Shown here piece by piece: positions 4,789-19,518 of a stretch of DNA of 19,518 nucleotides. The stretch lies in the IMG/VR virus record IMGVR_UViG_2541047681_000004; one strand, given 5' to 3'. A program made the translations under genes and the position numbers. Under the pieces are notes generated by a model. It was not told the origin of the DNA. It ran no database searches and saw nothing but the letters and a program-made list of their open reading frames with translations. Source of the DNA: a virus. Its lineage: Duplodnaviria > Heunggongvirae > Uroviricota > Caudoviricetes. How positions within the stretch are numbered: position 1 is the first letter of the stretch; each line of letters opens with the position of its first letter.

Positions 4789-4798
4789 GTTTCCCTCC

Positions 4799-6568
4799 TC
4801 AGTTGCCGTTAACAATGCTGATAACACTGCTGCGGGCCGGTGTGGTCAGCGTGGCCATGACTTCATCCAGTGCGGCTTCCGGTACGCCGTCCGGGTACTG
4901 TGCCGTTAACTGGCGGTAATGTTCCGGCGTCCAGGTAAGGCCGTCGGCGCTGAACTTATCGCGCAGGGCTTTCGCGGCCTCCACATGAGTCATGGGACGT
5001 TGTTCAGTGCGCGGCCCGCGTACGTCAGAGGCCTGACCACGCTTCGGCATATAGGCCGGAAGTGTGGTGTCGTCGATATGTTTATACGGGTCAAGCCGCC
5101 CGCCGAACGGCAGCGCCTTCGCCTTGCGTGCGGCGGCTGCATCTGCGGCGTTGTCTGTACCGGTAACCAGCGCTTCGGTTTCTTTTGCCGCCATCTGTGC
5201 CGGGGTTTCCGGCAGGGCTTTGTAACTTTCGCCAAATACCGCCGCGCCTTCAGCAAAGCCAAACTCGTTCTTTCTGACCTCTTCGACCAGGAAGAACGTC
5301 TCGTGGCCGTCCTCACCGGTCAGAACCACCTGTGCCACATCGCTGCGCCATGGGTTACGGGTAATCATCAGTTTTTCACCAACCAGTACGCCCGGTACCG
5401 TTGATACGTCAAATTCAGTGCCCCGGAACGAGACACGAAGTTTTGGCGTGACTTTGCGGAGTTCTGGTGCCGCCACAGCCAGTTCACGACATACCTCAAC
5501 GGGAGGCGCTTTTTTCAGCTGCTCAGCAGTAATCTTCAGCCAGATATCCGTGCGGGTTTTACCGTGGCGGCTGTGAACAGCCGTGGCGTTAAAGTGGCTG
5601 CGCCATTTCGCGGCCAGCGCGTTGAGTTCTTCCAGACTGTGAACCGGCCGGAACTTCAGACCCGGCTCCAGCTTGCGTTCGATAATGTCCCGCGCCTTTT
5701 CCACCTGTCCGGTGGCGCGGGCGTTATGCGGCTTGTGCGCTATCAGGTCGATGCCCAGTGAGCGGCACATGTTTTTCGTCATACCCGCGGTGTTTGCCGA
5801 GCCGGGGTCGAGATAGAGTATTTTCGGCACGCCGTGCAGCACGTCTGCGCCGCCACGCTCCTGCATGGCGTTGATAAGCACAGAACACAGGTTCTCACCG
5901 GATTCCGCGCCCGTCACATACTCAACGTAAATCCAGCCGCTGGCATGGTCGGTAATCTCGTAACTCCACACGCGGTCACTGGCGATACGGGCAAGGTTAG
6001 CGGGCTTGTTCTTGTAGAACTTCGCGCTGTCCATCACCTGCAGCCCTTTATGTCCATTGCTCAGGTAGTAAAGCGTGCAGAGTGAGGCGTCAATCTGCCA
6101 GACATGATTGGGATGCAGACTGGCCACTTCGGTATGTGGTGCAGGGGCATCCAGTTGTTCCGGGTGCAGGCCATAGTTACGCAGAGCACGGCTGATGGCA
6201 TCTTCAGACAACGGGAAAAACTCACCGGTGGTTTCATCTGTTCTGCCTGCGGTGATAAAGCCGTTAGCCCGCAGGGTTTCCACTGCATCTGCGATGGAAT
6301 AGAGACGCTTACCGTTCTTGCGGGTGGCCTCACGCAGTGTGGCAGATATCAGCGCGGCTTCGTCGCGGGTCAGGGCGCTGCGCCCGGCATCGGCGCGTTT
6401 TTTGCGTTTATCAGTCACAGAGACCTCCTTCAGCCTGCGCAGCAGAGTGGCGCGGGACATGCCAAGTTCAGCACAGGCAGCGTCGTATATTGCACCGCGT
6501 TTACCATGCCCCGCGTCACGTGCCGCGCGGGCGACATAAACCAGTCGTTCAGTCAGGGCAGCATTCAT
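4799..6568 (-). CDS. DDE transposase with integrase-like core (transposable-phage TnpA), 589 aa
   Basis: N-terminal HTH-like region, a central core with Asp-containing motifs (WQIDAS, LYLDPGS) consistent with an rve/DDE fold, and a B-like ATPase gene immediately downstream as in Mu A-B. Confidence 0.85.
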   Translation of the reverse strand: MNAALTERLVYVARAARDAGHGKRGAIYDAACAELGMSRATLLRRLKEVSVTDKRKKRADAGRSALTRDEAALISATLREATRKNGKRLYSIADAVETLRANGFITAGRTDETTGEFFPLSEDAISRALRNYGLHPEQLDAPAPHTEVASLHPNHVWQIDASLCTLYYLSNGHKGLQVMDSAKFYKNKPANLARIASDRVWSYEITDHASGWIYVEYVTGAESGENLCSVLINAMQERGGADVLHGVPKILYLDPGSANTAGMTKNMCRSLGIDLIAHKPHNARATGQVEKARDIIERKLEPGLKFRPVHSLEELNALAAKWRSHFNATAVHSRHGKTRTDIWLKITAEQLKKAPPVEVCRELAVAAPELRKVTPKLRVSFRGTEFDVSTVPGVLVGEKLMITRNPWRSDVAQVVLTGEDGHETFFLVEEVRKNEFGFAEGAAVFGESYKALPETPAQMAAKETEALVTGTDNAADAAAARKAKALPFGGRLDPYKHIDDTTLPAYMPKRGQASDVRGPRTEQRPMTHVEAAKALRDKFSADGLTWTPEHYRQLTAQYPDGVPEAALDEVMATLTTPARSSVISIVNGN

Positions 6569-6571
6569 TGG

Positions 6572-7483
6572 TTATGCCTCCAGCCCGTTAATCTGTGGCG
6601 TCGGCTCAGTCAGCCATGAAGGCGCTGCATTGCCTGTTGGCTCGTCCGGCAGGTCAAATGTGGAGCGCAGGCTACGCGCTGTGCTTTCCAGTTGACAGAC
6701 CAGGCCTGCCATGAAGTCTCTGGGGGTATCAATCATGTTTTCAGCACAATATGCGCACAGTGTCTCAAAAGCGCTGGACAGTCGAACGGCGATGGCAGAT
6801 TCCGCCTCAACCGCTAATGCTGTCACTTCCGCCCGCAGCTTCTTAACCTCCTCATCAGGCTCAGGCAGCTGAATACGGGATTTCTTTTCCAGTCTGGTAG
6901 AGAGAGAATCAATTTTTTCATTTTTATCGGCGAGTACGCGCTGTTGTGCTGCGTTGGTTTCGCGCGCTTCGCGCAGGGCCTGGCGAAGTTCGCGTACTGA
7001 CATGCGATCAACGTCGTCAAGCGTCAGGCCGGCAACAGTGCCACCATCAGCCAGTTCGGCAAGGTTTTCATCGTCTTCCGTCATTAACTCGAATAATTTG
7101 GCTTTTCCTAAAAGCGCAAACGTCTGCGCTTTTGACTCAAGTTGTGGTGATAAATATTTTATTGATGCCTGCATCATTACCTGTGCAGTACGCTTTGACA
7201 TTGATAATTCAGACTCGACAATATTTATGAAATCACCATATGGTTCATTTTCTTTCAGTATTATCAGTCGTTTACCTGCCTCTAGCATGGCCTCAGCACT
7301 TTGTGCCATATAAAAGCGTGCTTCGTGAACAATGCGATCACGTTCATAAGGCAGACCATCGCCGAACTGCTGCATGATCTCCACGCGGTGTTGTGCCATG
7401 GTATTAAGACTGATGTTGAGATCATCAGACAGCGGCACCTCAGCATTCAGATCAGTGGACATTGGTGATTTGGTACGTCCCAT
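6572..7483 (-). CDS. conserved early protein, 303 aa, coiled-coil rich
   Basis: Long ORF immediately upstream of the transposase, with AAGGAG 7 nt upstream. No confident family; possibly one of the DUF-type early proteins of transposable phages. Confidence 0.55.
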   Translation of the reverse strand: MGRTKSPMSTDLNAEVPLSDDLNISLNTMAQHRVEIMQQFGDGLPYERDRIVHEARFYMAQSAEAMLEAGKRLIILKENEPYGDFINIVESELSMSKRTAQVMMQASIKYLSPQLESKAQTFALLGKAKLFELMTEDDENLAELADGGTVAGLTLDDVDRMSVRELRQALREARETNAAQQRVLADKNEKIDSLSTRLEKKSRIQLPEPDEEVKKLRAEVTALAVEAESAIAVRLSSAFETLCAYCAENMIDTPRDFMAGLVCQLESTARSLRSTFDLPDEPTGNAAPSWLTEPTPQINGLEA

Positions 7484-7493
7484 TGATTACTCC

Positions 7494-7802
7494 TTATAAA
7501 CGACTACCTGAAATGACACGTTGGTTGATTTCGTTAATACGATCCTGCGCTCGTGCCATCTCGTTACTGTGAGCCATGGCGATCTGCAGTAACTGGATGC
7601 CCGGTGCAAAACGTCCATTCTCCAGTTTCAGGGCCAGCCCTTCTTCAATGAGGGTGTTGAGTGCCCGATTAATGTTTGCTGGTGACTCGTGCAGTGCTGC
7701 CGCCAGTTCACCGTTGGAGATACCGTTCAGAGCGTGGCCACGTAACGCCTTAAGAACACGCAAAATACGGGTACCTGCGCTTGATGTATTTGGTTTATTC
7801 AT
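7494..7802 (-). CDS. winged-helix DNA-binding protein (IclR N-terminal HTH-like), 102 aa
   Basis: RILRVLKAL...GISNGELAAAL...SPANINRALNTLIEEG resembles the IclR-type HTH. Second gene of the early operon. Confidence 0.45.
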   Translation of the reverse strand: MNKPNTSSAGTRILRVLKALRGHALNGISNGELAAALHESPANINRALNTLIEEGLALKLENGRFAPGIQLLQIAMAHSNEMARAQDRINEINQRVISGSRL

Positions 7803-8023
7803 GACACCTCCTTAAGGATACCGGGGGTAACTTCTTTACCTATTGCAACCGATAGATCTCGCAAAATCCGATAAGTCAAACGACCACGTGGTAGTTCACT
7901 TTTACCAGCCCAGCGACTGACTGCCTGTGTGACTGTTCGTGGCTCATAGCCTGCGTTAAGCGCGAACTGGCGCAAGCTACTGCCTCGTTCAACTAGTCGT
8001 GCCCGAACTTGTTGTTTATTCAT
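7799..8023 (-). CDS. small HTH DNA-binding early regulator (Ner/Cro-like by position), 74 aa
   Basis: First gene of the leftward early operon, divergent from the repressor. HTH-like segment SLRQFALNAGYEPRTVTQAVSR. Confidence 0.5.
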   Translation of the reverse strand: MNKQQVRARLVERGSSLRQFALNAGYEPRTVTQAVSRWAGKSELPRGRLTYRILRDLSVAIGKEVTPGILKEVS

Positions 8024-8096
8024 ATGCGGATAGTTCCAGTTGGGTTATCATGTACTCAATATGAATAAATGTACTTATTCAAAATAAATAAATCAA
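8024..8096. promoter_or_regulatory. divergent early/repressor promoter region with candidate operator
   Basis: AT-rich 73-bp spacer between divergent genes. Inverted repeat TGAATAA-N6-TTATTCA at 8062-8081; ATGTACT occurs at 8050-8056 and 8069-8075. Candidate minus-strand promoter TTGATT-N17-TACATT overlaps the repeat. Confidence 0.5.
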
Positions 8097-8528
8097 GTGG
8101 AATTACGCAAAATGAATAACAAAGATGTTAACGCTGTGCTTTCCCGGTTAATGTCACTATTCCAAGCAGAGAATGATAGTGAGTTGGCAAGAGCGCTTAA
8201 CGTCAATAGGCAGACACTTGCAAGTTGGAGGAAGCGTGATTCTGTGCCTTATGCAATTTGCATAAACATCGCAGAAGAAAAGGGGGTTTCTTTAGATTGG
8301 TTGCTAACAGGTAGAAAACAAGGTTTATCAAAAGAAGTAGACGTAACTCCGACGCAAGTGCAGTTTAGCCAAGCTGACCTTACTATGCTTGAGCTTTTAA
8401 AGCAGCTAGACCCCGAGGTTCGTAACGATCTTCTGCGAGGCGCTGCGGAAAAACAGCGAGTGATCGAGATGGAAAAACAACTGAAGGAATTATCCGCAAC
8501 GATTGAGCGGTTAAAAAATGTGGGTTAA
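8097..8528 (+). CDS. CI-type phage repressor
   Basis: N-terminal HTH (LARALNVNRQTLASWRKR) with a coiled-coil C-terminus, typical of CI-like repressors. Divergent from the early operon. Start uncertain: GTG 8097 or ATG 8112. Confidence 0.7.
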   Translation: MELRKMNNKDVNAVLSRLMSLFQAENDSELARALNVNRQTLASWRKRDSVPYAICINIAEEKGVSLDWLLTGRKQGLSKEVDVTPTQVQFSQADLTMLELLKQLDPEVRNDLLRGAAEKQRVIEMEKQLKELSATIERLKNVG

Positions 8529-8548
8529 TCTATTCCCAATGAGAACAA

Positions 8549-8580
8549 TTGACAAGGTTATCAAACCTCTTCGTTATATG
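8549..8580 (+). promoter_or_regulatory. possible sigma70-type promoter for the downstream cassette
   Basis: TTGACA at 8549-8554 followed 17-20 bp later by a weak -10-like TATA-rich segment (8572-8580). The cassette may also be read through from the repressor promoter. Confidence 0.25.
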
Positions 8581-8650
8581 CGCTGATTTAAACAGTAGGA
8601 TGTGCTGTTTGCACTAACCATCTGAACTTTCCGCGTTAAGGATTAATCGT

Positions 8651-9544
8651 ATGAGTGGTGATGTGAGAAATTATCGTATTGAGTTTCATCAGCTATCGTT
8701 TAAGGCCACAGATCAGCTGGCAAATCTCGGAGATGCTTTTCAATCTGTAATTGATAAACAGAGCCCTTCCTCTTCAAACCATGAGGGTTTTACTAGAGAA
8801 ATTTGGGGGTTGAAAAAACGCGCGGATGGTTCTTTTAGTGGAGAGTTGAGAAAATTTCGCAACTCGAACATTCCGGATAAAGGTGCACCAGGGAAACAGT
8901 CTACCCCTATTCCACTTGCCAAGGATGAAGGGATCATTGAGCGCAATTTCTTTGTATTCTATCCTCGAATCAATGTTATAGGTTGGCACTATAATCATAT
9001 GGCTTGTGGTATAAGCCGTTTTAGTGCATTTCTTTCAACTATCTTTGGTTCAAAGGTTAAGCCCGCACCTTTGCTGGAAAAAGATGCAATCGCTAGGCTT
9101 ATGAGAGGAGATGTCAAAATGAAAAAAATCCAGTTGACGATTCCTCGCCCCCGTAATCCTGAGTTTTACCCTGATACTGATTTCAGTCAAAAGACACTAC
9201 AACTGCTTGGTGATGCAGGTGCCGATACAATGCAAATTGTAATGGGGATTAATACTCGCCGTGGCGATAGTGATGGTAGGCTTAAGCAGAATATAAAATT
9301 TGCTATGCAAGAGTTAGTCGAGTTTGGGGCGAAAAAGGCTGTAATTGATGTGTTCGATGCTGATGGTGTTGTCCATCCTGTGGATTTGATTGCCGAGCGT
9401 ATTTCGTCCTATCAATCGGTAGTTACTGACGCTCGTTTCCCTCCAGCCGAAACCATGTACCGTCTAATCGATACTGCGTATGCTGAAAACCGGGAGAGTA
9501 TCAATGCATATATTGGAGAAGATGAACTCGGCCCTATTGCTTAG
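8651..9544 (+). CDS. unknown soluble protein, 297 aa; candidate RexA-like component of a repressor-linked exclusion module
   Basis: AAGGA 9 nt upstream. No hydrophobic segments. AT-rich codon usage unlike the flanking phage genes. Sits directly after the CI-type repressor on the same strand. Function is inferred from context only. Confidence 0.6.
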   Translation: MSGDVRNYRIEFHQLSFKATDQLANLGDAFQSVIDKQSPSSSNHEGFTREIWGLKKRADGSFSGELRKFRNSNIPDKGAPGKQSTPIPLAKDEGIIERNFFVFYPRINVIGWHYNHMACGISRFSAFLSTIFGSKVKPAPLLEKDAIARLMRGDVKMKKIQLTIPRPRNPEFYPDTDFSQKTLQLLGDAGADTMQIVMGINTRRGDSDGRLKQNIKFAMQELVEFGAKKAVIDVFDADGVVHPVDLIAERISSYQSVVTDARFPPAETMYRLIDTAYAENRESINAYIGEDELGPIA

Positions 9545-9941
9545 TTTATTGATTGGATGTGGGATTGGTTTTCTCTACTGGTTCAAGTTGCCCCATATGC
9601 CAGTAGCCGCAATCCCAAACTTCATGACTACATTGTCCAGTGTCTTTGCAACGTTGTTAGGTTTTATTATTACAGCAATTGCACTACTTGCATCATTGCT
9701 TGATAAACCGTTACTTAAAAACATGCAAAAAACCGGACATTACAAGCGTCTGATGACCGATGCATTCTACACTTGCTTAGTTTTGCTAGTGTTGGTGTTG
9801 ACATGTTTGATTGGGTTGATGCTGCAAAGTAAGCATCAAGAGATTGTAGCCGCTATTCTCATTGGGCTTGTTGTTATGTCTATGTTGTGTTTATTACAAA
9901 CAGGTAGGCGATTATTCAATATAATCAAAGTGATATCATAA
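9504..9941 (+). CDS. small polytopic membrane protein, ~145 aa, 4 predicted TM helices; candidate RexB-like partner
   Basis: GGGAGAG 5 nt upstream of ATG 9504; start overlaps the upstream gene by 41 nt. Four hydrophobic segments (ALLLSLLIGCGIGFLYWF, LSSVFATLLGFIITAIALLASLL, AFYTCLVLLVLVLTCLIGLML, IVAAILIGLVVMSMLCLL). Alternative start ATG 9522. Confidence 0.6.
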   Translation: MHILEKMNSALLLSLLIGCGIGFLYWFKLPHMPVAAIPNFMTTLSSVFATLLGFIITAIALLASLLDKPLLKNMQKTGHYKRLMTDAFYTCLVLLVLVLTCLIGLMLQSKHQEIVAAILIGLVVMSMLCLLQTGRRLFNIIKVIS

Positions 9942-9965
9942 CAATGCACCATCAGGTGCATTGTT
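9940..9965. terminator. perfect 11-bp hairpin between convergent genes (candidate bidirectional terminator)
   Basis: AACAATGCACC-atca-GGTGCATTGTT; begins at the membrane-protein stop and lies 29 nt from the dam stop on the other strand. No long U tract, so intrinsic termination is uncertain. Confidence 0.4.
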
Positions 9966-9993
9966 ATGCAAGACTACTTACCTCCTTCTGAGC

Positions 9994-10761
9994 CTACTCT
10001 AAATTACTTACAATAAGTTCGCGCCGTAGTGTTCCCTTTCCTGCAAGACTGTAGTTGACCTTCACACAGTGAATGTTCAGACCGTTAAAAACCTGCCGCA
10101 TTTCCGGGATATCGTTGACCGATATAATCATCTTTCCTCTGATGCACCGGGCCAGCTCTGCCAGCCGCGAGTAGTTCCCTTCAGGAAAATCCACACCATA
10201 GCCTTCCGTACCCAGGTACGGTGGGTCGCAGTAGAACAGCGTGTGCGGACGATCATAACGCTCAATGCACTGTTGCCAGTCCATGTGTTCTATGACTGTT
10301 CTGGAAAGCCGCAGGTGTGCCGCTGACAGTTCTTCTTCAATACGCAGCAGGTTGAAGCGTGGCGGGGATGTGGTGGAGGTACCGAAGCTGTGCTCTGCCA
10401 CCTTGCCGCCAAACGCCTGCTTCTGAAGGTAGTAAAACCGTGCCGCACGCTGGATATCCGTCAGTGTTTCTTCCGGGGTGATCTGCAGCCATTTGTAGAT
10501 CTGACGGCTGACCAGCGCCCATTTGAACTGGCGGACAAATTCTTCCAGGTGATGCTTTACCACCCGGTACAGATTCACCAGTTCACCGTTGATATCATTG
10601 ATGACTTCGATCTTGCCGGGTGTCTTAAGAAAATAGAGCGCTGCTGCCCCACAAAACGGCTCCACATAACATTCATGCGCCGGAAACAGCGGCAGGATGT
10701 GTTTTGCAAGGCGGCGTTTGCCACCAATCCATGGAACGATGGGTAATGTCTGCATTTTCAT
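9994..10761 (-). CDS. DNA N6-adenine methyltransferase (Dam-like), 255 aa
   Basis: Motif I-like FCGAAA and catalytic DPPY (FYCDPPYLGTEGYG) in the order seen in Dam-family enzymes. No restriction endonuclease partner visible. Confidence 0.8.
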   Translation of the reverse strand: MKMQTLPIVPWIGGKRRLAKHILPLFPAHECYVEPFCGAAALYFLKTPGKIEVINDINGELVNLYRVVKHHLEEFVRQFKWALVSRQIYKWLQITPEETLTDIQRAARFYYLQKQAFGGKVAEHSFGTSTTSPPRFNLLRIEEELSAAHLRLSRTVIEHMDWQQCIERYDRPHTLFYCDPPYLGTEGYGVDFPEGNYSRLAELARCIRGKMIISVNDIPEMRQVFNGLNIHCVKVNYSLAGKGTLRRELIVSNLE

Positions 10762-10830
10762 AATCTGTAAGCCTTTTACAATTATAAAAAATATGGCAGG
10801 CTAGTCTGGTCTCGCGAGACTGACTGAACC
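10762..10830 (-). promoter_or_regulatory. putative dam promoter with upstream 12-bp palindrome
   Basis: On the minus strand a consensus TATAAT (RC of 10781-10786) lies ~20 nt upstream of the dam ATG. Perfect palindrome GTCTCGCGAGAC at 10809-10820 just upstream. Confidence 0.3.
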
Positions 10831-10866
10831 TTGGTCGGCTCACAGCGCATTCCTGTGGGGCGATGG

Positions 10867-10894
10867 CCAGCCCGGTGTTCGGGTACCGGGCTGG
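10867..10894 (+). other. GC-rich hairpin (9-bp stem, 10-nt loop)
   Basis: CCAGCCCGG-tgttcgggta-CCGGGCTGG, followed on the plus strand by TCGTTCTTTC. Lies in the 190-bp gap between dam and the 71-aa ORF; could be a terminator-like or regulatory structure. Confidence 0.3.
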
Positions 10895-12403: not shown

Positions 12404-12754
12404 ATGAAAAACCTGAAAAAATTCATTCCCCCTGTTAAAAAACCTCGCCTCAGCGGCTGGCTGCTGACCTCAGTGCTGTTGCTGGGCATCATCGCTCTGG
12501 TCTCGCCACAGCAGTTGCCTGTTGTGATCTACAAGCTGGCACTCATCACGCTGGCAGCAGTGCTGGGGTACTGGCTTGACCGTTCGCTCTTCCCCAAAGC
12601 CCGTCCCGGTCAGTACCTGAAACATGAAGACAGGCTGATGGCTGAAGGGCGTTTCCCGGTGCAGACCGGCCTTCACCTTGTATTTTCTGCTGCGTTAATC
12701 CGCCGTGCACTGATTGTTGCAGCTGTCTGTCTGGCTGTTGCGATGGGGCTTTAA
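12404..12754 (+). CDS. putative holin, ~116 aa, 3 hydrophobic helices
   Basis: AAGGAG 6 nt upstream of ATG 12404 (track ORF begins at GTG 12371). Three hydrophobic segments, positioned immediately upstream of the endolysin. Confidence 0.5.
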   Translation: MKNLKKFIPPVKKPRLSGWLLTSVLLLGIIALVSPQQLPVVIYKLALITLAAVLGYWLDRSLFPKARPGQYLKHEDRLMAEGRFPVQTGLHLVFSAALIRRALIVAAVCLAVAMGL

Positions 12755-12756
12755 TC

Positions 12757-13497
12757 ATGAACTGGCCGCAGATCACCTGGATTGTATGCATGTCCCTGAA
12801 ACTGGCTTTCGAAGCCTTTCGGGTCTTCATCAGAACCGAACGCCTGTCAGTCCGCGCCGGGACCTTTCTGGTTCATATGGCATGGGTATTCTTTGTCGCA
12901 ATGTTGCTCTGGTGTGGCGGCTTTTTCAGCCAGGCATGCGCAGCGCAGCCTCCGCAGGTTGCGCTGCAGTATCGCGATGATGTGATCCGTAATGCCCGGC
13001 TTGAATGGGGACTGTCTGCGCCGGTGGCCGACTTCGCCGCGCAGCTGCATCAGGAAAGCGGCTGGCGACCTGATGCGATCTCGCCGGCTGGCGCTCAGGG
13101 ACTGGCGCAGTTCATGCCTGCCACTGCCGACTGGATAAGCCAGTTGATACCGATGCTGAGCAGTCGTGAGCCGTTTAATCCGGCATGGGCTATCCGGGCG
13201 CTGGTCAGCTATGACCGCTGGCTGTGGCAGCGTGTCAGCGCCGCCAGTGACTGCGAGCGTATGGCCATGACGCTGTCGGGCTATAACGGTGGTCTGGGCT
13301 GGGTACAGCGGGACAGACGGCTGGCCTCACAGCAGGGGCTGGACAGCACCCGCTGGTTCGGACATGTCGCCACGGTGAATGCCGGACGCAATGCGGCCAG
13401 CTGGCGGGAGAACCGCCATTATCCGCAGCGCATCCTGCGCGAACTGGCACCGCGATATCTCACATGGGGAGGCAGCAGTTGTGTGGCATCTGGTTAA
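12757..13497 (+). CDS. lytic transglycosylase endolysin (SLT domain) with N-terminal hydrophobic anchor/signal, 246 aa
   Basis: SLT signature QESGWRP ... AQGLAQFMPATA. N-terminal hydrophobic stretch VHMAWVFFVAMLLWCGGFF, consistent with a signal-anchor-release or secreted endolysin. Start adjoins the holin stop. Confidence 0.8.
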   Translation: MNWPQITWIVCMSLKLAFEAFRVFIRTERLSVRAGTFLVHMAWVFFVAMLLWCGGFFSQACAAQPPQVALQYRDDVIRNARLEWGLSAPVADFAAQLHQESGWRPDAISPAGAQGLAQFMPATADWISQLIPMLSSREPFNPAWAIRALVSYDRWLWQRVSAASDCERMAMTLSGYNGGLGWVQRDRRLASQQGLDSTRWFGHVATVNAGRNAASWRENRHYPQRILRELAPRYLTWGGSSCVASG

Positions 13498-14131
13498 AAA
13501 GCTGCCGTGGCGCGGCATTCTGCTGGCCATTCTTATCAATGCCTTTCTGGTCGGCCTGTATGCCATGGGATACAGAAGTGGTCATGACTCTGCAAAGCGT
13601 GACGGTGATACCGCGCTCAGTCAGTTGCAGTCAGCGTTCGACGCGTACAAAACGGAGCAGGCAACGCTTGAGAATGCTGCGCTGCGGGCCTGGGCCAGAC
13701 GGTATCAGGAGCAGGTGGCCGCCGGGCAGCGGGCTGAAGCCGGTTATCTTGAGCAGATTGCTCAACTGGAGAGCCGGAATAAACAACTACAGGGGCAAAT
13801 TAACGATGTCACACAGCGCTGGATTGATGAAAAAGGTAAGAGCCATCCCATTGAGTGCGTGTTTACTCGCGGTTTCGTGCGCCAGTACAACGCCGCACTC
13901 GGATATGACAACGCATCCGTCGACACCGGTCATTCAGACTCAGTTGCCGCCGCTGGCACCCGCTCTGGCACAGCGACCGGGCAACCTGAAACCACTGACA
14001 CCCGGTTACGCGATTCGGGTGTCTCCCAGCGTGACGTTCTCGCCAACATCATCGACAACGCAGGACAATGTCGTCGCTGGCGGAACCAGATAAACGCGTT
14101 ACTGGATGAACGGGAAGGATTACAGAAATGA
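13481..14131 (+). CDS. i-spanin (Rz-like), ~216 aa
   Basis: GTG 13481 with GGGGAGG 8 nt upstream. N-terminal TM (WRGILLAILINAFLVGLYAMGY) followed by coiled-coil sequence. The track ORF start at 13379 lies inside the endolysin. Confidence 0.55.
   Translation: MWHLVKKLPWRGILLAILINAFLVGLYAMGYRSGHDSAKRDGDTALSQLQSAFDAYKTEQATLENAALRAWARRYQEQVAAGQRAEAGYLEQIAQLESRNKQLQGQINDVTQRWIDEKGKSHPIECVFTRGFVRQYNAALGYDNASVDTGHSDSVAAAGTRSGTATGQPETTDTRLRDSGVSQRDVLANIIDNAGQCRRWRNQINALLDEREGLQK
13827..14093 (+). CDS. o-spanin (Rz1-like lipoprotein), 88 aa, nested in the +1 frame of the i-spanin gene
   Basis: MKKVRAIPLSACLLAVSCAS signal/lipobox-like N-terminus followed by a Pro/Thr/Ser-rich body, nested entirely within the Rz-like gene. 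Alternative start ATG 13806. Confidence 0.55.
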   Translation: MKKVRAIPLSACLLAVSCASTTPHSDMTTHPSTPVIQTQLPPLAPALAQRPGNLKPLTPGYAIRVSPSVTFSPTSSTTQDNVVAGGTR

Positions 14132-14454
14132 CACTGCAGGTTGAATTCTGGACGGTGGTGAGTTTTCTGCTCACCTTCATGGGGTTTGTGGGAGGGCTCG
14201 CCAAATGGTTGTTCAGTAAAACAGAAGAACGCCAGGCGGCACGATTCGCCTCCCTTGAACAGGCCCTGCAACAATCCGCCTCCAACTGGGGCGAGCTGGA
14301 AAAAGAATTTATGCGATTTAAAGCGGATTTACCGCTGAATTATGTCCGTCGAGAGGATTATATCCGTGGCCAGACAGTCATTGAGGCCAAACTGGACGCG
14401 CTTTATAACAAACTGGAAGTGGTACAGCAGTACCGCAATACCGGAGGTCAATAA
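14128..14454 (+). CDS. DUF2730-like small membrane-anchored phage protein, 108 aa
   Basis: N-terminal TM helix then coiled-coil; a common Mu-like late gene in this position. Start overlaps the Rz stop (ATGA). Confidence 0.5.
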   Translation: MTLQVEFWTVVSFLLTFMGFVGGLAKWLFSKTEERQAARFASLEQALQQSASNWGELEKEFMRFKADLPLNYVRREDYIRGQTVIEAKLDALYNKLEVVQQYRNTGGQ

Positions 14455-14765
14455 TGGTCGATATTACCCGGGTACGCCGCGAATCCCTGCGCTGGAGTCT
14501 GCTGGTTGCCCTGAACAAGACCCGCCCTTACACCGCCAGCGAGACGCTGCTGCTGGATGTGTCCCGTGCCATCTACCCGGACACCACACCGCTGGAACTG
14601 CGACGCGAACTGGATTATCTGGCTGACCGTAAAATGGTTGATCTGGAGAAAAAACCTTCTGGCGACTGGTTTGCTGACCTGACCCGCCTCGGCGTAGACC
14701 TGGTGGAATACACCGTGGAATGTGGTCCGGGTATTGCCCGCCCGGAAAAGTACTGGAGTGAATAA
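14454..14765 (+). CDS. conserved hypothetical late protein, 103 aa
   Basis: Coupled start (TAATG overlap at 14452-14456), located between the lysis and packaging genes. No family recognised. Confidence 0.5.
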   Translation: MVDITRVRRESLRWSLLVALNKTRPYTASETLLLDVSRAIYPDTTPLELRRELDYLADRKMVDLEKKPSGDWFADLTRLGVDLVEYTVECGPGIARPEKYWSE

Positions 14766-15268
14766 TGGCCAGACGCAGCACAATAGAAAAGCTGCCGGAA
14801 GATGTGCGCCGCTGGCTTGAACGGGCGCTGACTGAATCCGGCTTCAGCGGGTATAACGAGTTGGAGTCCCTGCTGCGTGAGCGGGGGTACGTCATCAGCA
14901 AATCCGCTATCCATCGCTATGGACAGAAGATTGAGCGCCGCTATGGTGCTATCCGTGCGGCAACAGAAGCGGCCCGCATGCTGACCGAAGGCGCAGCAGA
15001 CGATCAGGATGCGCGTTCGGAGGCTGTGATAGCCCTTATTCAGACCGAGCTGTTCGAGAGTATTGTCCAGTTGCAGGAGGCGGAAGAAGGCGAAGTCGAT
15101 CCTAAAGAACGCGTGGCCCTGCTGTCGAAGGTGGCGAAGAATGTGGCTACGCTGTCCCGCGCGTCCGTCAACCTCAAAAAGTTCCAGTCTGAAGTACGGG
15201 CCAGAGCGCAGCAGGCAGCCAGCAACGCCGAGAAAATTGCCCGTAAGGGGGGTATGAGACGACAATAA
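14765..15268 (+). CDS. small terminase subunit-like protein (Mu gp27/DUF3486-like), 167 aa
   Basis: Size, helical/charged composition and position immediately upstream of terL (before the IS) fit Mu gp27-type proteins. Coupled start (TAATG). Confidence 0.55.
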   Translation: MARRSTIEKLPEDVRRWLERALTESGFSGYNELESLLRERGYVISKSAIHRYGQKIERRYGAIRAATEAARMLTEGAADDQDARSEAVIALIQTELFESIVQLQEAEEGEVDPKERVALLSKVAKNVATLSRASVNLKKFQSEVRARAQQAASNAEKIARKGGMRRQ

Positions 15269-15345
15269 CTCAGTCCGCCTGGCGCCGATTATTCTGGCCG
15301 GTTTTGTAACCTGAGTGTCATTTACATGATCCAACAGGAAATGGC

Positions 15346-16845
15346 GTGACGCTCAATACTTCTCAGGTCAGTTACTATATGACTCAGCGTAAGAAAGGTA
15401 TAACTCAGCATATCTCGGCCATGAAGGCTGGTATCTCAGTCCGTTCTGGTCGTCGGATCGAAAAAGGAGAGTGGGCAAAAAACAGTGTTCGGCACTGGCG
15501 CACACGCAAAGATCCTCTGGAAGCTGTGTGGGACAGCATGCTTGTTCCTCTGTTGAAAGAGAGGCCGGCTCTGACACCAACAACTCTGCTGGAGATGCTA
15601 CAGGATAAATATCCCGGCCAGTACCCCAACAGCCTTCGAAGAACAATGCAACGGCGGGTCCGCGAATGGAAGCTACAGTATGGTGCAGAGCAGGAGGTCA
15701 TGTTCCGCCAGCGACATCAGCCCGGTCTGCGAGGTCTGTCGGACTTTACTGAACTGAAAGGTGTAGTTGTCACCATCGCCGGTAAGTTGTTGGCGCATAA
15801 GTTGTATCACTTCCGTCTGGAATGGAGCCACTGGAGCTGGATGCGGGTTGTGCTGGGTGGTGAGAGCTTCTCTGCTCTGGCTGAAGGTCTGCAGGAAGCC
15901 CTCGGACAACTGGGCGGAGTGCCGGTAGAACATAAAACGGACAGCCTGAGGGCAGCATGGAAACAACAGGGCGAAGATGGACGCCGCGAGCTGACTGAGC
16001 GTTATGCTGCTCTCTGTCAGCACTACGGAATGCAGGGCGTACACAATAATGCCGGTCGGGGCCACGAAAATGGCTCGGTTGAAAGTGCCCACGGACATCT
16101 GAAAAGGCGTATCTGTCAGGCGCTGATACTGCGGGGCAGTAACGACTTCAGCACCATAGAAGAATATCAGGCCTTCATCACTCAGCAGGTTATGCGGCAC
16201 AACCGTAACAATCAGGATCTGGTCAAGGAAGAACGTCTTCATCTGAAACCGCTGCCGCTTCGTCGCAGTGCTGACTATGATGAGCTGACTGTGAGGGTTA
16301 GCCGCAGCAGTACCATCAATGTGAAGCACGTCGTCTACAGCGTACCTTCCCGGCTTGTAGGTCAACTGTTACGGGTCCGGTTATGGGACGATCGTCTGAG
16401 CTGTTACGTTGGCAGCAGCGAGGTCATGAGCTGCCCACGTGTCAGACCAGAAAAAGGGAAGACGCGGGCCCGTCGTATCGACTTCCGACATGTGATCGAC
16501 AGTCTGGCAAAAAAGCCCGGTGCGTTCTGCCATGCAACGCTGAGAAATGACATCCTGCCAGACGATGAATGGCGGAGGCTGTGGCGTCGCTTATGTAATC
16601 ATCTGGAACCCGACATGGCAGGCAGGCTGATGGTACATGCTCTGAAACTGGCTGCAGGATACGACGATATCTCAGTCGTGGCAAAAGGTATGGAGCAGAT
16701 GCTGAATACCCCGGGAAACGTGGATCTGCACCGGCTGATGCGCTTCCTGGGTATAAAGGAAAAGGCGTTGCCGGTAGTCAATGTGAAACAGCATAACCTG
16801 AGCAGTTATGAGCAACTACTGCGTGGCAAGGGAGGTTCGCAGTGA
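15346..16845 (+). CDS. istA: IS21-family transposase IstA, 499 aa from GTG 15346
   Basis: N-terminal HTH (ISAMKAGISVRSGRR), integrase-type catalytic core, conserved HENGSVESAHGHLKRR segment. AGGAA 5 nt upstream of GTG 15346; alternative ATG 15379. Confidence 0.85.
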   Translation: MTLNTSQVSYYMTQRKKGITQHISAMKAGISVRSGRRIEKGEWAKNSVRHWRTRKDPLEAVWDSMLVPLLKERPALTPTTLLEMLQDKYPGQYPNSLRRTMQRRVREWKLQYGAEQEVMFRQRHQPGLRGLSDFTELKGVVVTIAGKLLAHKLYHFRLEWSHWSWMRVVLGGESFSALAEGLQEALGQLGGVPVEHKTDSLRAAWKQQGEDGRRELTERYAALCQHYGMQGVHNNAGRGHENGSVESAHGHLKRRICQALILRGSNDFSTIEEYQAFITQQVMRHNRNNQDLVKEERLHLKPLPLRRSADYDELTVRVSRSSTINVKHVVYSVPSRLVGQLLRVRLWDDRLSCYVGSSEVMSCPRVRPEKGKTRARRIDFRHVIDSLAKKPGAFCHATLRNDILPDDEWRRLWRRLCNHLEPDMAGRLMVHALKLAAGYDDISVVAKGMEQMLNTPGNVDLHRLMRFLGIKEKALPVVNVKQHNLSSYEQLLRGKGGSQ

Positions 16846-17597
16846 GCAATATCCATCACCTTGAACGCAGCCTGCGTAAACTACGCCTGACACGAGTTGG
16901 AGCTGAATGGCACGCTCTGGAAAAACGAGCACTGGCAGAAGGCTGGACACCATCGCGCTATCTTCTGACGCTATGCAATGAAGAACTCCTGTGGCGCGAG
17001 AGTGAAAAACTGCGTCGTTATAAAAAGGAGGCCCGGTTGCCAGTTGCCAAAACGCTAAGCGAATACGACTTCAGTCAGGTGCCGGAACTGAATGGAGCTC
17101 AGTTCCGGCAACTCTGTGAAACGACAGACTGGGTTGATGCAGGAGAAAACGTTCTGCTGTTCGGAGCCAGCGGGTTGGGGAAAAGCCATCTGGCGGCAGC
17201 GATCGTGGATGGCGTAGTAGGCCAGGGCTACCGGGCCCGGTTCTACAGCGCAGGAGAGTTGTTGCAGGAACTACGTAAAGCCAGAGCGCAGTTGAAACTG
17301 AATGAGCTGCTACTGAAACTGGATCGCTACCGGGTGATAGTGGTGGATGATCTTGGCTATGTCAAACGCGACAGCGCCGAAACGGGAGTACTGTTCGAGT
17401 TAATAGCGCATCGCTATGAACGTGGGAGCCTGGTGATAACCAGTAACCATCCGTTCAGCATGTGGGGCAGCATCTTCGTGGATGAGACTATGGCGGTGGC
17501 GGCGGCAGACCGGCTGATCCATCACGGATATATGTTCGAACTGAAAGGTGAAAGCTACAGGAAAAAGACAGCGAAGGCAGTAACAAGCGCGACTTGA
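16842..17597 (+). CDS. istB: IS21-family helper ATPase IstB, 251 aa
   Basis: Walker A GASGLGKSH, Walker B VIVVDDLGY and the IstB-like tail HHGYMFELKGESYR. GTG start overlaps the istA stop. Confidence 0.9.
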   Translation: MSNIHHLERSLRKLRLTRVGAEWHALEKRALAEGWTPSRYLLTLCNEELLWRESEKLRRYKKEARLPVAKTLSEYDFSQVPELNGAQFRQLCETTDWVDAGENVLLFGASGLGKSHLAAAIVDGVVGQGYRARFYSAGELLQELRKARAQLKLNELLLKLDRYRVIVVDDLGYVKRDSAETGVLFELIAHRYERGSLVITSNHPFSMWGSIFVDETMAVAAADRLIHHGYMFELKGESYRKKTAKAVTSAT

Positions 17598-17722
17598 TGT
17601 CGCACTGAAGGGTGCGGCCAGTATAGTTGGCGCGAGTCGGCAAAACTAGTTGACGTCTAATAGGGGGGACTGTCAAGCGACGCAGTACAGGCGCTTCGTC
17701 GCGAGATTCTGGGGATTGCCAC

Positions 17723-19318
17723 ATGACAAAATCATCCGGAGTGATTTTAAACGCCGCTGGCGGTGGCCCCGAAGGGATGAGTCCCATGGACGGGAGGAAT
17801 AACCTTGCTCCCGTTTTGCCTGATACCTCGGCGCTGGATGCTCCTCCCGTTCTGTTGCCTTACCAGCAGCGCTGGGTGGCAGACACCTCTCCGCTTAAGG
17901 TGATAGAAAAGAGCCGTCGTACCGGTATTACATGGGCTGAGGCATCCGATAACGTACTGACCGCCGCCTCTTCTGCGCCAGCAGGCGGGATGAATGTGTA
18001 TTACATCGCTTATAACCAGGACATGACCGTCGAATACATTCAGGCGTGTGCGATGTGGGCACGGGCATTCAACTATGCGGCCAGTGAAATTGAAGAAGGA
18101 TTCTGGGAAGAGGACGACGACGACAAACACATCAGGACTTACACCATCAAATTTCCTGACTCCGGCTTTCGTATTGTTGCGCTCTCCAGCCGCCCGTCTA
18201 ACCTGCGTGGCCGTCAGGGTATTATTGTTATCGACGAAGCGGCGTTCCATGAGCAACTGGACGAACTGCTGAAAGCGGCGCTGGCGATGCTTATCTGGGG
18301 GGGAAAGGTACGCGTTATCTCCACCCATGACGGTGACGACAATCCGTTCAATACGCTTATCGGGGATATCCGTGCCGGACGTCAGGGAGGCAGCATACAT
18401 CGCATCACTTTCCGGGAAGCCGTATCTGAGGGGCTGTTCCGGCGCGTCTGTCTGCGCACCGGGAAGGAATGGTCGGAGGCATCCGAGCAGGCCTGGATGG
18501 CATCGGTGTACAAATTCTACGGTGCCGGCGCATCCGAAGAGCTTGACTGTATTCCGGCCAACGGTGGCGGTGCCTGGCTGTCCCGTGCCCTGATAGAGTC
18601 CCGCATGTCCGCTGATACGCCGGTATTGCGTCTGACCTGCAAGGAAGGTTATGAACTGCTGTCTGATGAGGTTCGCTTCCGCGAGACGCAGGACTGGCTT
18701 GATGAGTATCTGAAACCCTTGCTGGAGGCACTCCCCACTGATGCCCGCTCTTTCCTGGGGCGCGACTTTGGCCGTAGCGGTGATTTGTCGGTGGACTATC
18801 CCCTGCTGCAGGAGAAGAACCTGGTACGACGCGTGCCATTCGTACTGGAGCTGCGTAACGTGCCGTTCAGACAGCAGGAGCAAATCACCTGGTATCTGAT
18901 GGATGGCCTGCCCGGTCTGCTGGGTGCAGCGTTTGATGCCCGTGGTAATGGTGCCTATCTGGCTGAATACGCCATGCAGCGCTACGGCTCCGGCCGGGTT
19001 CAGCAGGTGATGCCAACCGAAGGCTGGTACCGGGAGCATATGCCTCCGGTCAAAGCTGCACTGGAAGACGGTAACCTGGTGGACTTACCAAAGGATGAAG
19101 ACACACTGGATGACCTGCGGGCCGTTCAGGTGGTGAACGGTGTCCCCCGCGTACCGGAGCAACGCTCAAAAGCAAAGGCTGACGGTGGTAAACGCCACGG
19201 GGATTCAGCCATCGCACTGGCGCTGGCGTATTTCGCCAGCCGTGAAATTAACAAAGGGCCGGTGAAGGCAAGCTCACGCCGTCGTCGTCAGGCGGCCCGT
19301 ATGCTGGAGGGATTCTGA
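17723..19318 (+). CDS. large terminase subunit (Mu gp28-like), 531 aa
   Basis: Large acidic protein immediately followed by a portal-like gene; its motifs resemble Mu-type TerL as I recall them. Separated from terS by the IS21 element. The N-terminal ~30 residues could be affected by the insertion. Confidence 0.7.
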   Translation: MTKSSGVILNAAGGGPEGMSPMDGRNNLAPVLPDTSALDAPPVLLPYQQRWVADTSPLKVIEKSRRTGITWAEASDNVLTAASSAPAGGMNVYYIAYNQDMTVEYIQACAMWARAFNYAASEIEEGFWEEDDDDKHIRTYTIKFPDSGFRIVALSSRPSNLRGRQGIIVIDEAAFHEQLDELLKAALAMLIWGGKVRVISTHDGDDNPFNTLIGDIRAGRQGGSIHRITFREAVSEGLFRRVCLRTGKEWSEASEQAWMASVYKFYGAGASEELDCIPANGGGAWLSRALIESRMSADTPVLRLTCKEGYELLSDEVRFRETQDWLDEYLKPLLEALPTDARSFLGRDFGRSGDLSVDYPLLQEKNLVRRVPFVLELRNVPFRQQEQITWYLMDGLPGLLGAAFDARGNGAYLAEYAMQRYGSGRVQQVMPTEGWYREHMPPVKAALEDGNLVDLPKDEDTLDDLRAVQVVNGVPRVPEQRSKAKADGGKRHGDSAIALALAYFASREINKGPVKASSRRRRQAARMLEGF

Positions 19319-19518
19319 TGGCGAGGGGTATCTGGGTTTCACCCGATGAATTTGTTGCTTTTTCTGAGCCTCAGAAATCACTGACCGCGCAGATTGCCTC
19401 CCGCAGCCGCGCGATCGACTTTTACGGACTGGGCATGTATCTGCCCAATCCTGATCCCATTCTCAAGGCTCAGGGACGGGATATCCGTATCTACCGCGAA
19501 CTGCGCACCGACCCGCTG
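19318..19518 (+). CDS. portal protein (Mu gp29/DUF935-like), N-terminal fragment truncated by the window end
   Basis: Start overlaps the terL stop (ATGG/TGA at 19316-19320); the ORF runs to the window edge. Assignment rests mainly on position after terL. Confidence 0.45.
   Translation, partial: MARGIWVSPDEFVAFSEPQKSLTAQIASRSRAIDFYGLGMYLPNPDPILKAQGRDIRIYRELRTDPL

What the first reader, a model, noticed from the sequence alone, without database searches (positions are those of the whole stretch)
15269..17722. IS21-family element inserted between terS-like and terL in the packaging operon
A complete istA-istB pair sits in what should be a short terS-terL junction, separating the large terminase gene from its operon by about 2.4 kb. 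This likely makes the prophage packaging-defective or changes late-gene expression. Flanking AGTC motifs (15272-15275 and 17636-17639) are a possible but unconvincing target duplication.
Basis: partly seen in the sequence, partly recalled or inferred. Interest (0 to 1): 0.6.

Follow-up and report, generated by a model that had tools for sequence, protein, structure and literature searches.

The report
ISEc10 insertion truncating a prophage terminase gene
A common, intact E. coli jumping gene (ISEc10, IS21 family) has landed in the last 18 codons of the small-terminase-like gene of a Mu-like prophage, just upstream of the large terminase gene; this is ordinary prophage decay and probably stops the phage from packaging its DNA.

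Summary
The element is ISEc10 (IS21 family), window 15253-17662, 2410 bp. It is identical base for base to copies in five other E. coli replicons. It has imperfect 48-nt terminal inverted repeats and a perfect 6-bp target duplication, GGGGGG, at 15247-15252 and 17663-17668.

Removing the IS and one GGGGGG rebuilds a sequence that matches 526 complete E. coli genomes end to end without gaps (best rows 99.9%). It also matches the isolated Escherichia phage PhiKM (Bcepmuvirus).

The insertion is not in an intergenic junction. It lies inside the Mu gp27/DUF3486 (TerS-like) gene, after codon 163 of 181. It replaces a family-conserved C-terminal tail with MRRQ* and breaks the native ATGA stop/start overlap with terL. 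terL itself is intact.

A packaging defect is a reasonable inference, about 0.6, but it was not tested. The kind of event is already known and interest is low.

The parts
14765..15268 (+). Chimeric gp27/DUF3486 (small-terminase-like) ORF, 167 aa. Codons 1-163 are native; the last 4 codons (MRRQ) and the stop are read from the IS left end.
   Evidence: Pfam PF11985 Phage_Mu_Gp27 E = 5.2e-50, covering only profile positions 1-159 of 173. PHROG 426 'terminase small subunit' 3.7e-55. The native 181-aa protein in L001/PhiKM covers the profile 1-173/173 at 192 bits.
15247..15252 (.). Left copy of the 6-bp target-site duplication GGGGGG
   Evidence: The empty site in L001 and PhiKM holds one GGGGGG. 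Other ISEc10 copies also carry 6-bp duplications.
15253..17662 (+). ISEc10 (IS21 family), complete, 2410 bp
   Evidence: Matches of 99.9-100% in the 20 rows listed. 1708 places in 1200 of 5426 complete E. coli genomes; 762 records have a best place at >=99% identity. Bounds fixed by six other copies. 0 mismatches over 2410 nt against five of them.
15253..15300 (+). Left terminal inverted repeat (IRL), starting TATGAGACGACAA
   Evidence: the repeat finder I1: 48-nt arms, 71% complementary. End-to-end comparison.
15346..16845 (+). istA, IS21-family transposase, 499 aa, GTG start
   Evidence: NCBIfam NF033546, 227 bits (cut-off 160). Pfam Mu-transpos_C_2 8.8e-08. The identical copies are annotated in RefSeq as WP_000174402.1, 'IS21-like element ISEc10 family transposase'.
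16842..17597 (+). istB, AAA+ helper ATPase, 251 aa; its start overlaps the istA stop by 4 nt
   Evidence: PF01695 9.5e-62. NF038214, 266.7 bits (cut-off 200). IS5376 IstB structures 8q3w/5bq5, E = 5e-45.
17615..17662 (-). Right terminal inverted repeat (IRR), ending ...GTTGACGTCTAATA
17663..17668 (.). Right copy of the target-site duplication GGGGGG
17669..17726 (+). Orphaned 3' remnant of gp27: the last base of codon 163, codons 164-181 (LSSDAVQALRREILGIAT) and the TGA. It is preceded in frame by the stops TAA TAG and has no start codon.
   Evidence: Three-frame translation. Identical to the native 3' end in L001/PhiKM.
17723..19318 (+). terL (Mu gp28-like large terminase), 531 aa, intact. 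In the native state its ATG overlaps the gp27 TGA (ATGA).
   Evidence: PHROG 2 'terminase large subunit' 5.2e-39. Pfam Terminase_6N is a weak hit below its cut-off. Window 17662-19518 is 100% identical to the uninterrupted prophage L001. PhiKM annotates the same 531-aa terL overlapping terS.

Best explanation
A complete, apparently transposition-competent copy of ISEc10 (IS21 family: IstA DDE transposase plus IstB AAA+ target-capture ATPase) inserted by simple transposition into a run of six G's. The site is near the 3' end of the gp27/DUF3486 small-terminase-like gene of a BcepMu-type transposable prophage of E. coli, and the insertion duplicated the 6-bp target.

Shown:
- The exact bounds of the element, the duplication and the empty site.
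- The resulting TerS-like protein loses its last 18 residues, a tail conserved across Mu-like phages, and gains MRRQ.
- The native ATGA stop/start overlap with terL is destroyed, and terL now lies 2.4 kb further from the late genes upstream.
- terL itself is intact. The IS genes point the same way as the late operon.

Inferred (about 0.6): the prophage can no longer package DNA efficiently, for three reasons.
(i) In lambda and P22 the TerS C-terminal region is the TerL-binding and DNA-binding part.
(ii) terL translation is uncoupled, and its transcription must read through the IS.
(iii) If this phage packages by headful as Mu does, 2.4 kb of extra DNA uses up most of the slack, which in Mu is normally filled by host DNA at the right end.

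The event is ordinary prophage inactivation by an IS.
For: IS identity and copy number. Matches of 99.9-100% in the listed rows; 1708 places in 1200 of 5426 complete E. coli genomes, annotated ISEc10 istA/istB. The window copy is 2410/2410 identical to five other copies. Curated family models are passed, and IstB matches the IS5376 IstB structures.

Bounds and duplication. Six other copies all begin TATGAGACG and end CGTCTAATA. Five of them carry 6-bp direct repeats. The window has GGGGGG on both sides.

Empty site. The window flanks joined with a single GGGGGG match 526 genomes over at least 80% of their length. The 25 listed rows cover all 1200 nt in one piece at 99.9%. Against L001 the only mismatch is 392 nt from the junction. 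Isolated phage PhiKM is identical across the junction stretch compared (99.4% over 1090 nt).

Truncation. The native protein is 181 aa and the window protein is 167 aa. The Pfam gp27 profile is covered 1-173 in the native protein against 1-159 in the window protein, and the score drops from 192 to 171 bits. The motif G-L-S-x6-(I/L)-(R/K)-x3-L-G-I is kept in most of seven phages that are only 30-67% identical, infecting Burkholderia, Pseudomonas, Stenotrophomonas, Leptolyngbya, Pasteurella and Shewanella.

Coupling. The terS stop and the terL start overlap or abut, from a 4-nt overlap to a 1-nt gap, in all seven of those phages and in PhiKM. In the window the remnant frame is closed by TAA TAG and has no start codon.

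The TerS C-terminal region binds TerL in lambda and P22, and deleting the P22 tail abolishes DNA binding and TerL association (review PMC9611059).

Mu packages only a few hundred bp up to 2-3 kb of host DNA at its right end (PMC5977238).

ISEc10 transposes in E. coli CFT073, and insertions upstream or downstream of lpp lower lpp expression 6-10 fold (PMC7482066).

Independent support for the junction. The chimeric 167-aa protein, with the first 29 nt of the IS behind it, is also on a contig from an unrelated sequencing run, ERR11147551.
Against: No functional data exist for this prophage. gp27 of Mu-type phages is called TerS by annotation and homology, not by any test made here.

The IS is co-oriented with the operon, and no convincing intrinsic terminator was found on the + strand within it. 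Terminator-like sites number 5, against 2.9 +/- 1.7 in shuffles, and the only + strand site is weak. Read-through into terL is therefore possible.

terL keeps its own GGGGA Shine-Dalgarno-like sequence 7 nt upstream of the ATG.

163 of 181 TerS residues remain, including the whole N-terminal region.

The insertion allele occurs in several samples (2 + 5). It is therefore stably inherited, which says nothing either way about phage viability.
Confidence: 0.9

Rival explanations
1. The insertion is real but harmless. The truncated TerS-like protein still works, terL is expressed by read-through from the late promoter using its own ribosome-binding site, and the prophage still makes infectious particles.
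For: The IS is co-oriented with the operon and has no strong + strand terminator. The terL SD-like GGGGA is retained. terL is 100% identical to that of intact prophages. 163 of 181 residues of gp27 are kept. The allele persists in several samples.
Against: The lost tail is the conserved end of the Pfam family profile and is kept across distant Mu-like phages. In lambda and P22 the equivalent region is needed for TerL binding (PMC9611059). The stop/start overlap is conserved in all relatives examined. 2.4 kb of extra DNA would strain a Mu-type headful (PMC5977238). ISEc10 insertions lowered expression of a neighbouring gene 6-10 fold (PMC7482066).
Confidence: 0.3
2. The istA/istB-like genes are native components of this phage lineage, for example an accessory transposition or replication module, rather than a secondary insertion.
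For: The phage is itself transposable and encodes its own DDE transposase and AAA+ partner (window 4799-6568 and 3622-4827), so such genes would not look out of place.
Against: 526 E. coli genomes and phage PhiKM have the uninterrupted site. The same 2410-bp unit occurs at unrelated chromosomal and plasmid sites with its own 6-bp duplications. A perfect duplication flanks it here. Relatives in seven other phages have terS abutting terL.
Confidence: 0.01
3. Assembly artefact: a repeated IS was placed wrongly in a draft scaffold. The source assembly is a scaffold with N gaps.
For: The source record KE698830.1 contains runs of N close by, and the window ends at one. IS copies are a classic cause of misjoins.
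Against: Both junctions are present with a perfect 6-bp duplication of a target that is single-copy in the empty site. A misjoin would not create that. The left junction is independently assembled from a different run, ERR11147551.
Confidence: 0.02
4. Selected domestication: the insertion is retained because a packaging-dead but immunity-proficient Mu-like prophage benefits the host. The host keeps the repressor and accessory genes and cannot lose cells to productive induction.
For: The allele is found in 2 + 5 samples. The prophage copies differ by clustered recombination patches but are identical from 13640 up to the junction. The prophage carries a distinct low-GC immunity and accessory module.
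Against: Seven samples of probably one lineage are equally explained by neutral clonal inheritance. None of 5426 complete genomes carries it. If the early and lysis genes are intact, induction would still kill the cell.
Confidence: 0.05

Closest known systems
ISEc10 (IS21 family) copies annotated in RefSeq E. coli genomes and plasmids (IstA WP_000174402.1, IstB WP_000065240.1)
   Same: 2410/2410 nt identical to copies in pTHO-008-1, an AR_0019 plasmid, pEC316_KPC, the USVAST219 chromosome and the CMZE120 chromosome. Same ends. The 6-bp duplication is the same length as in five of the six copies examined.
   Different: Only the location differs. No complete E. coli genome in the collection has it at this site.
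IS21 / IS5376 (prototype IS21-family elements; IstB structures 5bq5, 8q3w)
   Same: Two consecutive overlapping genes, istA and istB; a AAA+ IstB (E = 5e-45 to IS5376 IstB); long imperfect terminal repeats; a short target duplication.
   Different: Distant in sequence. IstA gives no PDB sequence hit. The element ends are TA...TA with TG at positions 3-4 of the left end only, not the TG...CA I recall as typical (from memory).
Escherichia phage PhiKM (PQ738613, Bcepmuvirus) and the BcepMu-type prophage present in about 10% of complete E. coli genomes
   Same: 99.4% nt identity across terS-terL. Collinear with the uninterrupted prophage in strain AR_0067 at 98-100% over most of the window, with the same gene order from Mor through transposase, lysis genes, gp27 and terL.
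   Different: The window prophage has the IS. It also has a different immunity region (7731-10036) and lacks a 0.3-kb gene next to the transposase gene.
Classical IS and transposon insertions in phage Mu (Mu X mutants, Mu derivatives carrying Tn insertions) - recalled from the literature, not checked here
   Same: A host mobile element inserted into a transposable phage makes it defective or forces compensating changes because of headful packaging.
   Different: Those cases affect early genes or were engineered. This one is a natural hit in the small-terminase-like gene.

Membership tests
IS21 family insertion sequence | IstA transposase matching the curated family model | tested here: met
   NCBIfam NF033546 'IS21 family transposase', 227 bits against a cut-off of 160, profile 2-293/294
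IS21 family insertion sequence | IstB AAA+ helper ATPase encoded immediately downstream on the same strand | tested here: met
   NF038214, 266.7 bits against a cut-off of 200. PF01695 9.5e-62. IS5376 IstB structures, E = 5e-45. The istB start at 16842 overlaps the istA stop at 16845.
IS21 family insertion sequence | Imperfect terminal inverted repeats at the element ends | tested here: met
   48-nt arms 15253-15300 and 17615-17662, 71% complementary. 11 of the terminal 13 nt match, with a second conserved block at about nt 29-48.
IS21 family insertion sequence | Short direct target duplication generated on insertion (4-8 bp for the family, from memory) | tested here: met
   GGGGGG on both sides here and single in the empty site. 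6-bp duplications flank 5 of 6 other copies.
IS21 family insertion sequence | Terminal dinucleotides 5'-TG...CA-3' (typical of many members; recalled from memory, not a curated criterion) | tested here: inconclusive
   The duplication-defined ends read TATGAG... and ...CTAATA. TG is at positions 3-4 of the left end only. I could not check the ISfinder definition.
IS21 family insertion sequence | Mobility: identical copies at many unrelated sites; transposition observed | tested here: met
   1708 places in 1200 genomes, on chromosomes and plasmids. New ISEc10 insertions were selected in CFT073 (PMC7482066; literature, not tested here).
Mu-like (Bcepmuvirus-type) transposable prophage | Mu-type gene set: Mor, DDE transposase A, AAA+ B-like protein, Gam, gp27, gp28/terL, Mu portal and Mu F | tested here: met
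   RefSeq annotation of the collinear uninterrupted prophage. Pfam hits on window and source-contig genes: rve, Phage_Mu_Gp27, Portal_Mu, Phage_Mu_F. 99.4% nt identity to phage PhiKM, classified Bcepmuvirus.
Small terminase (TerS) function of gp27/DUF3486 | Binds pac DNA and recruits or regulates TerL | not testable with these tools
   Only annotation and homology are available: PHROG 426 'terminase small subunit' 3.7e-55, the BcepMu gp27 record note 'TerS', and the conserved position directly upstream of terL.

The most novel reading that the evidence does not exclude
The IS-truncated TerS plus an uncoupled but intact TerL could leave a prophage that still replicates by transposition and lyses the cell but packages with relaxed or altered specificity. 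It might, for example, package host DNA in a GTA-like or generalized-transducing manner. Alternatively, the allele could be kept by selection as a domesticated immunity and accessory module. Nothing in the data excludes either reading, but nothing specifically supports either one.
Probability: 0.04. Interest if true: 0.45.

Novelty: already known. Interest (0 to 1): 0.1.

Why it matters
It matters little beyond annotation. It shows that this copy of a widespread BcepMu-type E. coli prophage is probably packaging-dead. It also corrects the gene model: the 167-aa 'DUF3486' protein is a chimera whose last four residues and stop codon come from the IS. It gives exact ends and a 6-bp duplication for ISEc10, an element that is active in clinical E. 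coli and is known to change expression of neighbouring genes. For prophage-activity predictions on the source strain, this prophage should be scored as likely defective.

Tried and rejected
1. AGTC as the target duplication. Rejected: both copies lie inside the terminal inverted repeats.

2. Alternative IS bounds with 4- or 5-bp duplications. The G-run makes these formally possible, and the megablast hit ends shifted between query positions 52-2463 and 54-2466. Resolved by reading the flanks of six other copies, which fix the ends at TATGAG.../...CTAATA and show 6-bp duplications in five of them.

3. A second disruption in the portal gene. Gene calls on the source contig show a split portal, but the split is a run of 280 N in the scaffold, not biology.

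4. Independent hits at a hotspot versus one inherited event. The Logan contig differs from the window at 43 positions, clustered in three patches. It is identical from 13640 up to the junction, which favours one event plus recombination.

5. Promoter and terminator scan of 14000-18000. Counts are not above the shuffled expectation. There is no convincing + strand terminator in the IS and no outward hybrid promoter. A -35-like TTGACG at 17650-17655 has no matching -10 in the flank.

6. PDB sequence search for IstA: no hit.

7. Rfam on the whole window: nothing.

8. PADLOC on the low-GC accessory ORFs: nothing.

9. The Pfam profile coverage and the nine-sequence alignment already show that the lost tail is conserved.
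Full report
**What is in the window**

The window is most of the left two-thirds of a Mu-like transposable prophage of E. coli.
- On the minus strand are the early genes: a Mor activator, a Gam-like protein, an AAA+ B-like protein (3622-4827) and a DDE transposase (4799-6568).
- On the plus strand, from about 12.4 kb, are the late genes: holin, SLT transglycosylase, spanin-like and lipoprotein genes, a Mu gp27/DUF3486 gene (14765-15268), and after a 2.4-kb interval a large terminase gene (17723-19318).
- The window is collinear at 98-100% identity over most of its length with an annotated prophage in E. coli AR_0067 (locus L001). Across terS-terL it is 99.4% identical to the isolated Escherichia phage PhiKM, classified in Bcepmuvirus.
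- It is 100% identical over 14,754 nt to scaffold KE698830.1 of assembly GCA_000456065.1, which is evidently its source.

**Checking the observation**

The interval holds two co-oriented, overlapping ORFs.
- The first (15346-16845, 499 aa) passes NCBI's curated IS21-family transposase model: NF033546, 227 bits against a cut-off of 160.
- The second (16842-17597, 251 aa) passes the IstB helper ATPase model (NF038214, 266.7 bits against 200; Pfam PF01695 E = 9.5e-62). It also matches the solved IS5376 IstB structures at E = 5e-45.

So a complete istA-istB pair is there.

**Exact anatomy of the element**

- A megablast of 15200-17800 against 5,426 complete E. coli genomes found 1,708 places in 1,200 genomes. 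They are annotated 'IS21-like element ISEc10 family', and the 20 listed rows are 99.9-100% identical. All matches stop at about 15253 and 17664.
- The insertion lies in a G-run, so the ends were ambiguous. I read the flanks of six other copies.
- All six begin TATGAGACG and end CGTCTAATA, 2410 bp apart. Five of them carry different 6-bp direct repeats: GGGATT, GGCTCC, GATGTG, ATCTGG and GATGAG.
- In the window the element is therefore 15253-17662, flanked by GGGGGG at 15247-15252 and 17663-17668.
- The window copy has no mismatch over 2410 nt to five of those copies, so it is intact and presumably active.
- The ends form 48-nt imperfect inverted repeats at 71% complementarity. 11 of the terminal 13 nt match, and there is a second conserved block further in.

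**Proof that it is an insertion**

- I joined 600 nt of left flank to 600 nt of right flank with a single GGGGGG. That sequence matches 526 complete E. coli genomes over at least 80% of its length. The listed rows cover all 1200 nt in one piece at 99.9%.
- Against L001 the only mismatch is 392 nt from the junction.
- PhiKM is identical across the junction stretch compared.
- No complete genome in the collection has the IS at this site: the best coverage of the junction-spanning query was 93%.
The requested terminal repeats and duplication are present.

**Where it landed**

It did not land in an intergenic junction.
- In the empty site the gp27/DUF3486 gene is 546 nt (181 aa), and its TGA overlaps the terL ATG (ATGA).
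- The IS sits after codon 163, 54 nt upstream of that ATG.
- The window ORF 14765-15268 is consequently a chimera: 163 native residues, then MRRQ and a stop read from the IS left end.
- The orphaned 3' remnant (17669-17726, LSSDAVQALRREILGIAT*) is preceded in frame by TAA TAG and has no start codon.

**How important the lost tail is**

- The native protein covers the Pfam Phage_Mu_Gp27 profile 1-173/173 at 192 bits. The truncated protein covers 1-159 at 171 bits.
- tblastn alignments to 48 of 49 matching phage records cover at least 80% of the query, and in the listed rows they reach residue 177-181.
- I aligned the protein with BcepMu, B3, JBD67, phiSHP3, Lsp-JY19, Pmp9 and MuM16-1, which are 67% down to 30% identical. 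Most keep a G-L-S-x6-(I/L)-(R/K)-x3-L-G-I motif at the very C-terminus. The invariant Gly163 is the residue at the insertion point.
- In all seven of these phages, and in PhiKM, the terS stop and the terL start overlap or abut, from a 4-nt overlap to a 1-nt gap.

**Likely consequence (inference, not shown)**

- In lambda and P22 the C-terminal region of TerS binds TerL. [quoted passage not shown] By analogy, the truncated gp27 is likely to be impaired in recruiting TerL.
- terL translation is no longer coupled to gp27, although a GGGGA sequence 7 nt upstream of the ATG remains.
- terL transcription must now traverse 2.4 kb of IS. The IS is co-oriented, and no convincing + strand intrinsic terminator was found: site counts are not above the shuffled expectation. 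Read-through is therefore possible.
- ISEc10 insertions upstream or downstream of lpp lowered lpp expression 6-10 fold in CFT073 (PMC7482066).
- Mu-type phages package a headful that normally includes only a few hundred bp to 2-3 kb of host DNA at the right end (PMC5977238). If this phage behaves like Mu, an extra 2,416 bp would consume most of that slack, so many heads would lack the right prophage end.
- I put the probability that the prophage is packaging-defective at about 0.6. The main rival, a tolerated insertion, is at about 0.3.

**Is the junction real?**

The source is a draft scaffold with N gaps; the window ends at a 280-N gap, which also explains an apparent split portal in the gene calls. 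Two things argue against a misjoin. A misjoin would not create a perfect duplication of a single-copy target. And the exact chimeric protein, with the first 29 nt of the IS behind it, is assembled independently from run ERR11147551. That contig is recorded in five samples and the NCBI contig in two. The Logan contig differs from the window at 43 positions, clustered in three patches (6725-6867, 10696-10885, 12489-13639). It is identical from 13640 up to the junction, which fits one insertion event followed by recombination.

**Comparison with what is known**

- The element is ISEc10 as annotated in RefSeq. It meets the IS21-family features I could test: IstA and IstB models, gene order and overlap, imperfect terminal repeats, a short target duplication, and many identical copies at unrelated sites.
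- I recall a TG...CA terminus as typical of the family. It is not literally present, since the ends read TA...TA. I could not consult ISfinder, so I list that point as inconclusive.
- PMC8764528 mentions a '2,530-bp ISEc10 insertion'. The duplication-defined unit here is 2410 bp, and I cannot resolve the difference.
- IS hits in prophage structural genes are commonplace. In one search other ISEc10 copies lie in or next to genes annotated as Lom family, portal and tail completion proteins.

**Verdict**

The functional claim is plausible but untested. This is a known element doing a known thing. Novelty: already known. Interest: 0.1.

Noticed in passing
window 7731-10036: The immunity region is swapped relative to the uninterrupted prophage L001. 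It is a low-GC (about 40%) segment with a CI-type repressor (8097-8528, PF07022) followed by two ORFs of unknown function: 8651-9544 (phrog_7651) and 9480-9941 (phrog_8552, probably membrane). Neither has a PADLOC hit. They could be a moron or superinfection-exclusion cargo expressed with the repressor.
   Followed up: partly
window 17650-17655: A -35-like TTGACG sits 7 nt inside the IS right end and points outward. This is the arrangement known for IS21, where a promoter forms at IS-IS junctions (from memory). The flanking phage DNA offers no good -10 at 16-18 nt, so no hybrid promoter for terL is evident.
   Followed up: partly
window end 19518; L016 14757-15036 and 18313-18542: The window ends exactly at a 280-N scaffold gap of the source assembly (KE698830.1). 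The apparent split of the portal and head genes in that record's gene calls is an assembly gap, not a mutation.
   Followed up: yes
L007 (NZ_CP120633.1 5058277-5060688): This ISEc10 copy has no target duplication (flanks gcgcca / ggccgc), unlike the five other copies examined. That suggests an IS-mediated deletion or a recombination between two copies in that genome.
   Followed up: no
window 17723 vs 17777; L001 15709: RefSeq/PGAP starts terL 54 nt downstream (513 aa) in the uninterrupted prophage. PhiKM and seven related phages annotate a start that overlaps or abuts the terS stop. The upstream ATG (17723) fits the conserved arrangement better.
   Followed up: partly
window 6556-6693 (L001 7952-8424): The window prophage lacks a roughly 0.3-kb hypothetical gene that lies between the transposase gene and the DUF3102 gene in L001. 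The DUF3102 gene region itself is only about 80% identical, so this is a mosaic segment.
   Followed up: no
window 17747-19039, minus strand: A 430-aa antisense ORF lies entirely within terL. It is most likely a spurious open frame in a 56-59% GC coding region.
   Followed up: no
L017 vs window 6725-6867, 10696-10885, 12489-13639: A second carrier of the same insertion allele differs from the window only in three clustered patches, 43 differences in total. This indicates gene-conversion-like recombination among co-circulating BcepMu-type prophages.
   Followed up: partly
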